Below are positions 52,683 to 59,029 of a stretch of DNA of 64,000 bases, piece by piece. How positions within the stretch are numbered: the stretch's first letter is position 1; every line of letters starts with the position of its first letter. The notes beneath the pieces are model-generated. The model was not told where the DNA came from. It searched no databases and saw only the letters and a program-made list of their open reading frames with translations. The DNA comes from the human T2T-CHM13v2.0 reference genome, Homo sapiens, in NCBI RefSeq assembly GCF_009914755.1, contig NC_060936.1. One strand, 5' to 3'. A program made the translations under genes and the position numbers.

Positions 52683-54368
52683 GTGTTGGTGAGGGCAATG
52701 ATGTGGAGACATTGTAGAATGTAAAATGGTTCATTACAGCCACTGTGAAAAACAGTATGGTAGTCCCTCTAAAAATTATAAATAGAGTTACCATATTATA
52801 CAACAATTCCACTTCTGGATATATATCCAAAAGAATTGAAAGATGGGTCTCTAAGAGATAATTTGTACACCCATGTTCACAGCAGCATCATTCACAGTAG
52901 CTAAAATGTGGAAGCAATCTACTTTCCATCAGCATATGAATGGATAAGCAAAATATGGCATATGCATACAATAGAATATTATTTAGCCTTAAAAGGGGAG
53001 AAAATGCTGACATATGCTACAACATGGATGAAACTTGAGGACATTATGCTAAGTGAAATAAGCCAATCACAAAAGGATAAATACTGTATGATTCCACATA
53101 TATGAAGTATTTAGTGTAGTCAAAATCACATAGACAGAAATAGTGGAAGTTGTTGCTAAGGGATGGGACAAGGGGAAAATGGGGAGTTATTATTTAATGG
53201 GTACAGAGTTTCAGTTTTATAAGATAAAAAGAGTTTTGGAGATGGATGGTGGTGATGACTGCACAACATGATGAATGTATTTAATGCCACTCATCTGTAT
53301 GTTAAAAACAGTTAAGGTGGTACGTTTTATGTGTATTTTACCACAATGAAAAAAAAATGGGAAAAAGCATACAGAAAGAACATATTATTCATGTGTATAG
53401 ATATATATAGGCATGAATAATAAAAATGAATACTTAACAAATTCCTTCTCTAAACTGTAAAATATTCTTGGTTAATAATATTTTTATTGATGTATTTCAA
53501 GCACCTAGAACTCTGCCTGGCATATAGTAGGGACTCACTAAATATTTGGTGAAAAATGCATTTGTGACAGTGACTGGCTGGGATAGGGTCTGGGAGGAAA
53601 ATGAAGCTAGAAATGAGGAAGAAGAGCAACAACTTTATTTGTAATGTGATATTCCTCTGGTTTAGAGAAAGAAGGAGAAAGAGACTTAAAGCAAAAAGGA
53701 AAAAAAGTTACTTTTCAGTTGTTAATTTGTATATGAATGTCTTTTATAACCGTCTCTATACTTTCCTGCATTGTTTAACTTTAAAAACAAAGCAGGTCTC
53801 ACAAACTGTAGCTCACATTTTTAGAAAGCATACACCTTAAAAATTAATAAGAAATTTTAAAGGAAATTTAGTGAGAATACTCTCATCCTTAATTCCAAAC
53901 TCTCGCCCTCTATAATTACATTCTACTTGTTCCATGTGTATTCATTTTGTTTTCTACTTTATATCGTGAGCAATTCATGTAGAAACTCTCTAGCTTTAAC
54001 ATTTGTCATGTTTCTCCTAATCTCTTGACTCAGAAGTTAGAATATTTGGTTTTAGACTTAGTTCCACATTTAACTAGCTGTGTGACTTTCACCACATTAC
54101 TCAATCAGTATGGAACTTTGCTTCCTCATTTGAAAACTGGAGATATTGCAAAAGAAGACCCTTAGTGTCCCTCCCATATTTAAGATTTTAGGACTTGATG
54201 AGAGTCTTCAAAAAAATCATGAAAAATGCATATAATAAAAAACCTATGCAAGTTTTCAAAAATTTTTTGCACCAAAATAATTTCTTAGTAACTTGTTATA
54301 ACATGGCTAAACACAATCCAGCTTGAGGCACTAAGAAAAATAAGACATCAGTTTGAAAAGAGCCCCCT

Positions 54369-54676
54369 GGCCAGGCACGGTGGCTCACCCCTGTAATCCC
54401 AGCACTTTGGGAGGCCAAGCGGGGCAGATCACGAGGTCAGGAGATCGAGACCATCCTGGCTAACATGGTAAAACCCTGTCTCTACCAAAAATACAAAAAA
54501 TTAGCCAGGCATGGTGGTGGGCACCTGTAGTCCCAGCTATTCAGGAGGCTGAGGCAGGAGAATCATTTGAACCCGGGAGGCAGAGGTAGCAGTGAGCAGA
54601 GATCATGCCACTGCACTCCAGCCTGGGTGACAGAGCGAGACTCCATCTCAAAAAAAGAAAAGAAAAGAAAAGAAAA
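54369..54676 (+). mobile_element. Alu (AluSc8/Y-like) nested in Hsmar2
   Basis: Alu dimer with (GAAAA)n tail; flanking repeat gaaaagagcccc. Confidence 0.95.
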
Positions 54677-55191
54677 GAAAAGAGCCCCTATCAGAGCAAC
54701 ATGCATTTTGCTAACATTAACCCAAGAACAAATATCATAATTAAGGTGCAGTTTGGATGGAAGAATGGTGAAGTCATTGATGCTTTATGAAAAGTTTATG
54801 GAGACAATGCCCCCCAAAAATCCATTTCCAAGCGGATAGCTTGTTTTAAGAAGGGATGAGATGTTTTAAGAAGGGACAAAGGCTATAGGGGCAGACCATC
54901 CACATCCATTTGCAAGGAGAAAATTAATCTTGTCCCACCCAAACAGTTTTGATGGAGAATCATTAGGCATCCACCTTACAGTCCTGATTTGGCTTCTTCT
55001 AACTTCTTCTTGCTTCCTAATATTTAAATAGCCATAAGGGCACCTATTTTTCCTTAGTTAATAATATAAAAAGGACTGCAGTGCCATAATTAAATTCCCA
55101 GGACCCTCAGTTATTTAGGGATGGACTAAATGGCTGATAGTATTGCTTACAAAAGTATCTTGACCTTGATGGAGCTTATGTTGACAAATAA

Positions 55192-56028: not shown

Positions 56029-56094
56029 AAATAAGAGGGTTTAAACCTCTATTATTTACTCTATCAGAGTAACTCTTTTATCAGACATATTTCT
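56026..56094 (-). pseudogene. Mitochondrial tRNA-Ile pseudogene
   Basis: Reverse complement agaaatatgtctgataaaagagttactctgatagagtaaataatagagg. Confidence 0.92.
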
Positions 56095-56957
56095 TATGTT
56101 TGAGGTGGAATACTAGATATTATGATGGGCACAGAGATACGTTATTTGCAAAGTGCTAGTGTGAGTAGTGAGAAGTTTTTTCACAATATATGAGCTGATC
56201 ATAATGAAATAGAGGGTATGATGCTGGAATTCATAAAAAAAGGGTCGTTAAAAGGAGGGTTTTGCTGACAAAATTTATGGTGTAGAGTTCTGGTATATGA
56301 ATATCATATACTGCTCCTAGGAAGATACTAGTGATTAGTGCATTCATTATAATGATATTTATATATTTTGCTATAAAGAACAGGGCAAATGGACCTGAGG
56401 CATGTTCAACATTAAATCCCAAGACTAATTCCCCTTCTGTTAGGTCAAATGGGGCTTAGTTAGTCTCTGCTAGGGTGGAGATGTATCGTATTATAGCTAG
56501 AGGTCATGATGGTAGGAGTAGCCAAATAAACTCTTGTGTTACGATGAATGTGGGTAAATTAAATGAGCCACTTATCAAAAGAACTGACAGGAGGATAATA
56601 GCTAGGGTAATGACATATGAAGTTGTTTGGGCTACTGCTGGTAGTGCGCCAAATAGCGCATATTTTGAATTGAATGCTCATCCTGATCCTAAGATAGACA
56701 GCTAGGCTTGATGTAGCTAGTATAAATAAGGGACCTATATTAAGATTAAATAGGGGGTATGGTATGGGGAGGGGGATTCATACAAAGAGTGCAATACGTT
56801 GGAGCAATACTATATGGGGAATGACAGATGCTAATGGTCATAGTGGTTCTTTAATAAAAAGTTTTATTGCATCTGCAAAGGGTTGAAGTAGTATGTACTG
56901 ACCTACACTGTTAGGTCCTTTGCAGAGTTGTATACAACCTAAAATTTTTCTTTCAAT
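56095..56957 (-). pseudogene. MT-ND1 pseudogene (lacks the extreme 5' end)
   Basis: Remnants of KILG..QL.KGPN near 56910-56950 and [14 protein letters not shown] near 56380-56420. Confidence 0.92.
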
Positions 56958-59029
56958 TTATTTGAATGAAATAAATAAATTATTTTAATTTCATTTTCCT
57001 TGAACTTTTTAAAATCCCTTTATATAATCTACGTTTTCTTTAAGTTCTGAAATTTGATGTGGATTTTCCCATGAAAATCCATTACATTTGTTTTGTACCT
57101 TTACTACAGTGTCAAGCACACTCTCTCCCGCAACAATTACAAAGTACAAAAAAAAACACAATAAATGTTTGCTGTTTTATGGTGAATAACTTCACTTTAG
57201 GGTGAATAGCTTCTAGAATGCCAATTAAGGTTCTTAAAAGAATCAAGTCTAATATCGCCTCTGTGTATTCATAAATGTTGCATTGGTTTAAGCCACAAAA
57301 TTATGAGAGAAGAGACTGTTCATTGGTTTGTTCATTTATAGCAGGTTGATGGTGAAATACATAGTTCTGTCTTAATGCCGCAATATATTGATATGAACAC
57401 ACATATTGCCTATCTCTTCACCCATGCATTTGAACAATCATAGATCAAATGGCATCTAATCCATGAATCGCTCTCCCTCTCCCCTACATGGTCCTTTTGA
57501 AGCCAGTGTAAGGTAGACCTGTTTCTGCGTGACTTTTGAGTTCCATTTCAACAGCCCTGCTTGAAAATCCAGTTACTATGGTGATATGTACCACTGCAAA
57601 TAATCTCCTCCTCAACAACTGAAGTTATACCCTACTCAGTAAAAGTGGTATCTACGGCTTAATGGTTTAGCAAAAGGCTGACAGATCTATGGTCTTATTT
57701 CCAACTGAGAGATTTTTAATAAGTAGTTTGAGCTCCTGGAATCTGAGAAGACTAAACAGCCTCTGTCTAAATTTAGCAGGATCAATCTTAAAGGACATTT
57801 CCTGGACGGATCAAATACTATATTCATCAGAATATGCTGTATCAGCATGCCGCCATTTGACCCTTTTCTGAGGCAGGAGACAAAAACAGACTGTCCCCTG
57901 AGTCTTTCAAAAGAAAAGAAAACTGACATCCAGGGAATGGACACCTCTCCCCAGTGTGATTCTCCTGTCAAAGGCCCCCATCAGTCCAGCCCCAACTCAG
58001 CCAGGTGCTCCCCCAGCAGGTCTCCCACCAGCACTTCGAGGCTGTGGTTTTAGCTCTTACTCTCTAAAAAGGTAGGGCCAGTGGCAGGAGGGCATGTTTT
58101 CTATCACTGCTGAGATGTGATCTTCTTGGCATTCTGGTGGCATTTCCAAATGCATTTTCCTTAAATAAATATTGTTCTAGACAAAGATTAGGTTCAGTAA
58201 CAGCATGTGTCAGAGGCTATACAGGATTGGAGTTGACTTGCACATTAATACCCTCTATGTTCTATTTATATGACAAAACCATAATGCATTCTCAGTTCTG
58301 GACAACTGTCTTAAAGTAGAACTTTTGTAAAACAAATTGTTATATTATATAACTTTGTAAACTGCTAAAATGTGAATACTTCAAAGGATAGAAATGGCCT
58401 CCTTCTTCATATGCATCCAGCCTTCCTAGCATAATAACAGGCATAATGCTTAGTAGTGTTTTGGGTGGTGAATGAGTGGGTAAGACATTAATAAATTTAA
58501 TTCAAAAGTCTTCTGTATGGGAACATTTTAAAATATGTGACATGTATTTATCACAGTTCATCTTCAGCTGTTTTTGGGAGAGATGTTCCCAAAGCCTAGG
58601 TGTAACCACTAGTCAAGCCCTCCCATAAAGGCACTAACAAATAAGGAAAACAAGAAAGCTATGTGTTAATAAAGTGAACCAGTTAAGAATTATTATTACA
58701 ATCTCAGACTGCAAATTAACAGGGTCACAGTCTGCAAATAAGAACATCTGATGACATAAGCAGTAACATCCTAAATTCATATCTGCTCTGGGGTAACTAC
58801 ACAGCTTGAGGCAAAATGCAGCCTGCTGGCAATTCTCCGGTGTGCACCGTTGGTGATAAGGCTGAATCAGCAAATATTTTTATCATTAGATCCTTCTACC
58901 TTGGAGACTATGGTTTTAATTGTGATCTCTATTTGTAATTACTAATCAAAATGTTATGAACCAAATCATTATCTCTTAATAATATGGCACTATATTTTTC
59001 ACTCTGATAAAAGATTTAGTCCTTTGCTC

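What the first reader, a model, noticed from the sequence alone, without database searches (positions are those of the whole stretch)
54199..57021. A 1.77 kb mitochondrial fragment enclosed between the two ends of an Hsmar2 mariner transposon
Seen: Hsmar2 left TIR at 54199; transposase remnant ending ...gatggagcttatgttgacaaataa at 55191; the NUMT starts immediately at 55192. After the NUMT ends (~56957), a short AT-rich linker leads to the Hsmar2 3' end and right TIR (~56992-57021). Inference: either mtDNA was captured at a break inside a resident Hsmar2 (simplest, and it bounds the NUMT's age), or a non-autonomous mariner carried mtDNA as cargo, which would be highly unusual.
Basis: partly seen in the sequence, partly recalled or inferred. 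Interest (0 to 1): 0.7.

Follow-up and report, generated by a model that had tools for sequence, protein, structure and literature searches.

The report
Mitochondrial fragment nested in old transposon
A 1.8-kb piece of mitochondrial DNA really does sit inside a dead human mariner transposon, but it looks much younger than the transposon and likely dropped into it during repair of a DNA break, so this is an ordinary nested fossil and probably not transposon cargo.

Summary
The nesting is real. Window 54199-55191 aligns to Hsmar2 mariner copies elsewhere in the genome (split by an Alu, with a ~570-nt internal deletion), a 1,766-bp ND1-tRNA-ND2 NUMT fills 55192-56957, and 56983-57022 plus TA supplies the element's last 43 nt (beats 12,186 of 12,186 window tiles and 5,000 of 5,000 shuffles; right end preferred over inverted left end by 6.5 bits). 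The cargo idea is not supported. At codon sites frozen in mammalian mitochondria the NUMT has decayed 19/374 (5.1%), the Hsmar2 copy 93/682 (13.6%; p=9e-6), and none of 11 other copies is below 8.7%. ND1 residues and a tree put the donor mtDNA outside crown anthropoids, likely on their stem. No other place among the scored candidates shares either junction or the deletion. Best reading: break-repair capture of mtDNA in a long-dead Hsmar2, a later Alu beside it. The NUMT is already catalogued (RefSeq, Tsuji 2012, ape T2T tables); I did not find the nesting in print, but chance predicts 0.1-0.3 such cases. Orthologue test in tarsier/lemur could not be run. Low interest.

The parts
54197..54198 (+). 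Position of the left TA target duplication; reads GA (decayed or mutated)
   Evidence: sequence against the left ends of 14 other copies
54199..54368 (+). Hsmar2 left TIR and 5' UTR (model positions 5-173)
   Evidence: nhmmer E 7e-39; 39 other genomic matches at 80-85%
54369..54676 (+). Alu inserted into the Hsmar2 5' UTR, with target-site duplication 54355-54368 / 54677-54689
   Evidence: matches 7 other full Alus of the window at 79-86%; SRP/Alu hits; duplication printed; non-CpG divergence 10/230
54677..54936 (+). Hsmar2 transposase 5' remnant (model 162-421), with stops
   Evidence: nhmmer E 3e-56
54937..54943 (+). Joint of a ~570-nt internal deletion (model ~421 to ~993)
   Evidence: 0 of 39 other scored matches span it
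54944..55191 (+). Hsmar2 transposase 3' remnant (model 993-1241) with the YSPDLA motif, ending at the stop codon
   Evidence: nhmmer E 8e-67; translation; motif named in PMC3770610
55192..55885 (-). NUMT: ND2 codons ~1-232, one frameshift, stops (MTND2P17)
   Evidence: Pfam PF00361; frameshift-aware alignment to ND2 proteins
55886..56094 (.). NUMT: mitochondrial tRNA cluster between ND1 and ND2 (tRNA-Ile 56026-56094 minus, tRNA-Gln 55957-56028 plus; tRNA-Met expected by gene order, not detected)
   Evidence: Rfam RF00005 50.5 bits and 27.4 bits, the second below the gathering score; tRNA names from mitochondrial gene order (recalled)
56095..56957 (-). NUMT: ND1 codons 23-318, two frameshifts, stops (MTND1P24)
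   Evidence: Pfam PF00146; alignment to 120 ND1 proteins
56958..56982 (+). 25-nt AT-rich linker in place of about 22 nt of Hsmar2 3' UTR; origin unresolved
56983..57022 (+). Hsmar2 3' UTR end and right TIR
57023..57024 (+). TA flanking the right end
   Evidence: sequence against right ends of other copies

Best explanation
A 1,766-bp ND1-tRNA-ND2 piece of mitochondrial DNA lies inside one decayed Hsmar2 mariner copy, 66 nt from its right end, and was likely captured there as filler during end-joining repair of a chromosome break long after the transposon had landed, likely in the anthropoid stem lineage. Shown: the nesting, the sharp junctions with one shared base and no poly(A), the lower decay of the NUMT, the non-crown ND1 residues. 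Inferred: the order of events (Hsmar2 in an early primate, then the NUMT, with the Alu of similar or younger age), the repair route, and that the loss of ~22 nt and the 25-nt linker arose at the same break. No function is implied; all parts carry stops, frameshifts or deletions.
For: Nesting. Clock: sites fixed by invariant amino acids changed at 13/246 (ND1) and 6/128 (ND2), together 19/374 = 5.1% (95% CI 3.1-7.8), versus 93/682 = 13.6% (11.1-16.4) non-CpG for the Hsmar2 copy; Fisher p 9e-6; 54 changes expected at the element's per-base rates. The measure orders other NUMTs sensibly: 2/266 for one with catarrhine residues, 19/256 for one with pre-anthropoid residues. Independent bound: 83% identity to a chr10 NUMT allows about 8.5% per side with CpG, versus 90/651 = 13.8% raw for the element. 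Donor: catarrhine residue at 0 of 7 and New World monkey residue at 0 of 8 diagnostic ND1 sites; of 3 anthropoid sites one is met (N161), one not (K126), one ambiguous; crown anthropoids group without it at 98/98. Eleven other Hsmar2 copies are 8.7-13.0% decayed. No shared junction in 39, 20 and 39 other matches; no Hsmar2 in 29 other NUMT loci with 1.5-kb flanks. Blunt or one-base joins with small deletions and additions are the common NUMT junction (PMC2567098, passages). Tsuji 2012 lists a same-size, same-strand chr12 NUMT as unique, age class 'after mouse, before rhesus'.
Against: No orthologue with an empty Hsmar2 was seen; that test could not be run. The element's figure includes any distance between its parent and the family majority and unrecognised old CpGs (only 20 columns were flagged), so it may be inflated; codons at frameshifts drop out of the NUMT figure. 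Stem-anthropoid placement has weak support (87/75) in a tree whose backbone is unreliable (rodents misplaced). Genome searches scored only 40 of 94-1,193 candidates. A 22-nt loss is larger than typical for young NUMTs (PMC2567098). A pairwise test first favoured an inverted left end (56 vs 49); profiles reversed this by 6.5 bits. Tarsier TinT data show late HSMAR2 activity in that lineage (PMC5059674).
Confidence: 0.92

Rival explanations
1. A non-autonomous Hsmar2 captured the mtDNA elsewhere and a mariner transposase moved the 2.5-kb composite to this site as cargo.
For: Both ends are present and colinear with TA at the right; cut-and-paste need leave no donor copy; DNA transposons were active in anthropoid ancestors until about 37 Ma (PMC2997546, passage); reconstructed HSMAR2 binds its ITRs and acts on ITR-flanked cassettes, though imprecisely (PMC3770610, passages); the idea is raised as a possibility in PMC13629686.
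Against: The element is 2-3 times more decayed than the NUMT, so its ends would already have been worn; 0 of 11 measured copies is as young as the NUMT (lowest 8.7%; P 0.007 for 19/374 at that rate); no second copy of either junction or of the internal deletion among scored matches.
Confidence: 0.02
2. The NUMT came not straight from mitochondria but was copied by break repair from another nuclear NUMT, such as the chr10:70.46 Mb one, into the resident Hsmar2.
For: The chr10 NUMT covers the whole fragment at 83% and differs almost evenly across codon positions (0.163, 0.149, 0.209), and groups with it in the tree (82/99); repair-mediated duplication is known (PMC2671141, passages).
Against: They share no non-CpG change at frozen sites (only one arginine CpG site); third positions still differ most; no chr10 flank came along. 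Closely related donor mtDNAs explain the same pattern.
Confidence: 0.04
3. The 3' piece is the inverted left end of a second Hsmar2 (or a short derivative), so the NUMT sits between two elements after a larger deletion.
For: Pairwise score to the inverted left end of the majority was 56 against 49 for the right end; the piece has the four-T run seen in left ends.
Against: Profile scores favour the right end by 6.5 bits over 46 nt; in leave-one-out 15 of 16 true right ends and 0 of 22 true left ends score above zero on that difference; the piece supplies the part the main element lacks.
Confidence: 0.02

Closest known systems
Human NUMT MTND1P24/MTND2P17 (Tsuji 2012 hg18 chr12:40378565-40380320; CHM13_pri_N504 in PMC13629686; Hsap_numt521/522 in PMC10764098)
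   Same: Same locus: CHM13 chr12:41657267-41658954 overlaps window 55267-56954; the hg18 and hg38 rows agree in size, strand and genes (matched by these, not by liftover).
   Different: The rows I saw do not mention the enclosing Hsmar2; this report adds exact ends and a stem-anthropoid dating.
Hsmar2 (irritans-subfamily mariner, about 1,000 human copies; PMC3770610)
   Same: About 1.3-kb family with near-identical 31-33-nt ends, TA flanks, YSPDLA motif here and DETW in a homologous copy.
   Different: This copy lacks about 570 nt of the transposase and carries an Alu and a NUMT.
NUMTs inside older repeats (10 of 557 within retrotransposons, Tsuji 2012 section 50)
   Same: A NUMT splitting a pre-existing mobile element into two colinear parts.
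   Different: Host here is a DNA transposon; 'DNA transposon' does not occur in that paper's main text.
NUMT-mediated end-joining (PMC2567098)
   Same: Blunt or one-base junction, small loss of host DNA, added bases, no poly(A).
   Different: Far older than the human/chimpanzee cases, so junction detail is blurred; loss of about 22 nt is large for that set.
Cargo-carrying DNA transposons (Pack-MULE type; recalled)
   Same: Foreign DNA between two TIRs.
   Different: No sister copies and an age gap between ends and content.

Membership tests
Hsmar2 mariner element | Homology along the family sequence, same orientation, both ends | tested here: met
   model 5-173, 162-421, 993-1241 and last 43 nt; reference built from other genomic copies, not from Repbase/Dfam
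Hsmar2 mariner element | 31-33-nt terminal inverted repeats | tested here: met
   each end matches the family's end; against each other only 20/31
Hsmar2 mariner element | TA target-site duplication | tested here: inconclusive
   TA at 57023-57024, GA at 54197-54198
Hsmar2 mariner element | Mariner transposase motifs (YSPDLAP, DETW, DD34D) | tested here: met
   YSPDLAS in the window; DETW in homologous copy L006 and PF01359 in 1 of 5 L006 pieces; 0 of 3 short window pieces hit Pfam; first two catalytic positions fall in or at the deletion, not checked
Hsmar2 mariner element | Family name by RepeatMasker/Dfam | not testable with these tools
   name rests on motifs and ITR sizes in PMC3770610 and on two homologous copies at chr17:14.10 and 15.49 Mb, the CMT1A-REP region (position recalled)
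NUMT | Colinear homology to mtDNA (ND1, tRNAs, ND2) under the vertebrate mitochondrial code | tested here: met
NUMT | Neutral decay (stops, frameshifts, changes at invariant codons) in nuclear flanks | tested here: met
   3 frameshifts, stops, 19/374 frozen-site changes, 10/18 at arginine CpG sites
Transposon cargo (transduplication) | Sister copies with the same captured insert and different flanks | tested here: not met
   only the best 40 candidates scored per search
Transposon cargo (transduplication) | Insert at least as old in the nucleus as the element's last move | tested here: not met
   5.1% versus 13.6%, and 8.7-13.0% for 11 other copies; indirect, since late movement of a worn copy is not strictly excluded
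Transposon cargo (transduplication) | No orthologous empty element in outgroups | not testable with these tools
   no non-human primate genome is held
L1-retrotransposed mitochondrial transcript | Poly(A) tail at the 3' end and flanking duplication | tested here: not met
   no T-run at 55192; duplication test not significant

The most novel reading that the evidence does not exclude
A worn, internally deleted Hsmar2 captured mitochondrial DNA and was then moved with it by a mariner transposase in stem anthropoids: the first case of a mammalian DNA transposon carrying mtDNA as cargo, and evidence of Hsmar2 activity tens of millions of years later than its other human copies suggest.
Probability: 0.02. 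Interest if true: 0.7.

Novelty: new member of a known kind. Interest (0 to 1): 0.13.

Why it matters
As read here it matters little: a catalogued NUMT inside a known dead transposon. It is a tidy three-layer marker (Hsmar2, NUMT, Alu) for primate phylogeny, a fossil of stem-anthropoid mtDNA with a mixed set of ND1 residues, and one data point for the open question whether DNA transposons spread NUMTs (here: likely no). If the cargo reading held, it would show a new route for mtDNA to move within a mammalian nucleus.

Tried and rejected
TIR symmetry as proof of the right end: 20/31 is matched by a chance site in the window, and the repeat finder did not list it among the 25 longest of 343 pairs. 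Profile search with bias correction missed the right end. Linker as a fold-back copy of the NUMT end (9/10 match): shuffle p 0.07, and 174 of 1,332 AT-rich tiles do as well; rejected as unsupported. Linker as target-site duplication: p 0.04-0.72 over the tests run, 14 tests in all, so not significant. Inverted-left-end reading of the 3' piece: see rivals. A squirrel-monkey NUMT that seemed to start at the same mitochondrial position is part of a longer ND1-ATP6 block, not this locus. ARAGORN found 0 tRNAs. Pfam on 3 short window transposase pieces: 0 hits. Pace and Feschotte 2007 is not held; it is cited through PMC2997546 and PMC5753468. Tarsier-paper supplements hold no row for the estimated hg19 position. 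Print searches: Hsmar2+NUMT 1 paper, unrelated mention; NUMT+inserted within+DNA transposon+mitochondrial DNA+captured 4 papers, 3 listed, none on this locus by listing; MTND1P24 3 papers, 2 listed, association studies by listing, not read.
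Full report
Verdict. In detail: one Hsmar2 copy is split near its right end by a 1,766-bp NUMT. The exciting reading (cargo) is unlikely; the simple one (later capture at a break) is supported by dating. The NUMT is already catalogued.

The element. Searching the window's own genome with 54683-55191 and 54100-54368 gave 65 and 39 other matches at 70-89% identity. I cut 14 near-full copies from the fetched loci, dropped 3 with disrupted ends, and built a profile from 11 (1,308 positions). It matches 54199-54366, 54677-54936 and 54944-55196 with E 7e-39, 3e-56 and 8e-67. 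Between the first two lies an Alu with a 13-nt duplication; between the last two about 570 nt are deleted, and 0 of 39 other scored matches span that joint (40 of 459 candidates scored). The name Hsmar2 rests on the YSPDLA motif in the window, DETW and a PF01359 hit in homologous copy L006 (1 of 5 pieces hit), element and ITR sizes as described in PMC3770610 (passages), and two homologous copies at chr17:14.10 and 15.49 Mb (their identity as the CMT1A-REP copies is recalled).

The right end. This was the weak point. The two TIRs match at only 20/31, equal to the best chance site in the window, and the bias-corrected profile search missed it. A targeted test with the 66 nt the main element lacks aligns 43 nt at 56983-57025 with score 49; 0 of 12,186 window tiles and 0 of 5,000 shuffles reach that. 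A pairwise check then favoured an inverted left end (56 vs 49), partly because the majority's right TIR carries the other CpG decay product. Profiles from 16 right and 22 left ends gave 24.9 vs 18.4 bits for the last 46 nt; in leave-one-out 15 of 16 true right ends and 0 of 22 true left ends had a positive difference. So it is the right end, finishing at 57022, TA at 57023-57024. About 22 nt of 3' UTR are missing and a 25-nt AT-rich linker stands in their place. The left flank reads GA, not TA.

The NUMT. Five of five stop-free pieces hit ND1 or ND2 families; Rfam finds two tRNAs, one above its gathering score. Of 47 other matches (40 of 94 candidates scored) 29 loci were fetched; those that extend further stop matching at 55191 and 56957. 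Base 55191 is shared; there is no poly(A). None of the 29 has Hsmar2 within 1.5 kb. Junction queries found no other spanning match: 0 of 39 (40 of 683 scored) and 0 of 20 (21 of 21 scored). The locus is RefSeq MTND1P24/MTND2P17, appears as CHM13_pri_N504 in PMC13629686 (supplement rows), as a unique class-a NUMT in Tsuji 2012 (PMC3467031; supplement rows and passages; matched by size, strand and mitochondrial span) and in PMC10764098 (supplement rows; that file is cut, and orthology tables I could not see may bear on the age, as may the unread supplemental PDF of PMC13629686).

Relative age. At first and second codon positions fixed by amino acids that are invariant across mammals, any change arose in the nucleus. 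Leaving arginine (CpG) codons aside, the NUMT has 13/246 changes in ND1 (120 proteins, 98% rule) and 6/128 in ND2 (33 of 120 proteins kept after thinning at 95%): 19/374 = 5.1% (CI 3.1-7.8). The Hsmar2 copy differs from the family majority at 93/682 non-CpG sites = 13.6% (CI 11.1-16.4); Fisher p 9e-6; 54 changes would be expected at its per-base rates. A/T sites alone give 9/205 versus 47/444. The 11 copies inside the majority range 8.7-13.0% (biased low); even 8.7% gives P 0.007. The measure behaves on other NUMTs: 0.8% for one with catarrhine residues, 2.6-8.4% for the bulk, 7.4% and 13.1% for two with pre-anthropoid residues. The Alu is at 10/230 = 4.3% against a mixed majority of 40 Alus, not separable from the NUMT. 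Caveats: unflagged old CpGs and parent-to-majority distance may inflate the element's figure; codons at frameshifts are skipped.

Donor lineage. The NUMT has the catarrhine residue at 0 of 7 and the New World monkey residue at 0 of 8 diagnostic ND1 sites; of 3 anthropoid sites it has N161, lacks N126, and position 84 is ambiguous (close paralogues have the anthropoid leucine). In a protein tree of 30 of the 120 proteins plus 7 NUMTs, crown anthropoids group without it at 98/98; it sits on their stem at 87/75, with the chr10 and chr3 NUMTs; the backbone is unreliable. The proteins were the best hits to one NUMT piece, not a balanced sample.

Mechanism. Shown: nesting, junction anatomy, decay gap. 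Inferred: Hsmar2 landed in an early primate (PMC3770610 places the family's start in the common ancestor of the primate suborders); a break 66 nt from its right end was later joined with mtDNA as filler, in line with the blunt or one-base joins, small losses and additions described in PMC2567098 (passages). Fold-back and duplication readings of the linker were not significant. Cargo needs a worn copy to move at about the NUMT's age; DNA transposons were active until about 37 Ma in this lineage (PMC2997546, passage) and HSMAR2 is called recent in tarsier (PMC5059674, passages), so it is not impossible, but no copy that young and no sister composite were seen.

Surprise. With about 1,000 copies of 0.6-1.3 kb and 610-760 NUMTs (assumed numbers, inside the 547-846 range of PMC10764098), chance gives 0.12-0.32 NUMTs inside Hsmar2, P of at least one 11-27%. 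Tsuji found only 10 of 557 NUMTs inside retrotransposons (section 50), so nested cases are scarcer than random, but known. I found no description of this nesting (listings; the library lacks most subscription papers). Interest 0.13.

Noticed in passing
window 55192-56957; PMC13629686 Supplemental Data 1 and 2: The ape T2T presence table appears to split this NUMT into two complementary rows: human plus both orangutans (CHM13_numt509) and gorilla plus chimpanzee plus bonobo (mGorGor1_numt9, 1,673 bp, same mitochondrial span, opposite strand on HSA12). Likely one insertion present in all six, mis-split by orientation; could affect their counts of losses.
   Followed up: partly
L011/L028 (G000:C10:70462303-70464414) and L010 (G000:C3:109620988-109622420): Two NUMTs with the same early-anthropoid ND1 residue set and the same 5.3-5.5% decay as this one; the chr10 one is split by an Alu-like insert. 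Together they sample one extinct stem mtDNA lineage.
   Followed up: partly
L022 (G000:C17:23213007-23214721): Young NUMT with catarrhine ND1 residues, no frameshift in the aligned ND1 part and 2/266 frozen-site changes; sister to gibbons in the tree.
   Followed up: partly
L042 and L045 (G000:C17:14097360 and 15492651): Two near-identical Hsmar2 copies 1.4 Mb apart, likely the CMT1A-REP pair (position recalled).
   Followed up: no
L007, L008 and G000:C1:143004642: Three chr1 Hsmar2 copies with nearly identical scores at 205.4, 121.2 and 143.0 Mb, likely carried by segmental duplication (SRGAP2 region, recalled).
   Followed up: no
window 54843-54877: A 15-nt stretch occurs twice, 20 nt apart, inside the transposase remnant, where the family has a different sequence at the second place; a local templated change.
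   Followed up: no
window 54199-57022: NCBI's mask covers only the Alu (54329-54703); the Hsmar2 pieces are unmasked in the annotation given.
   Followed up: no
window 59020-59099: (TG)n microsatellite with a degenerate tail.
   Followed up: no
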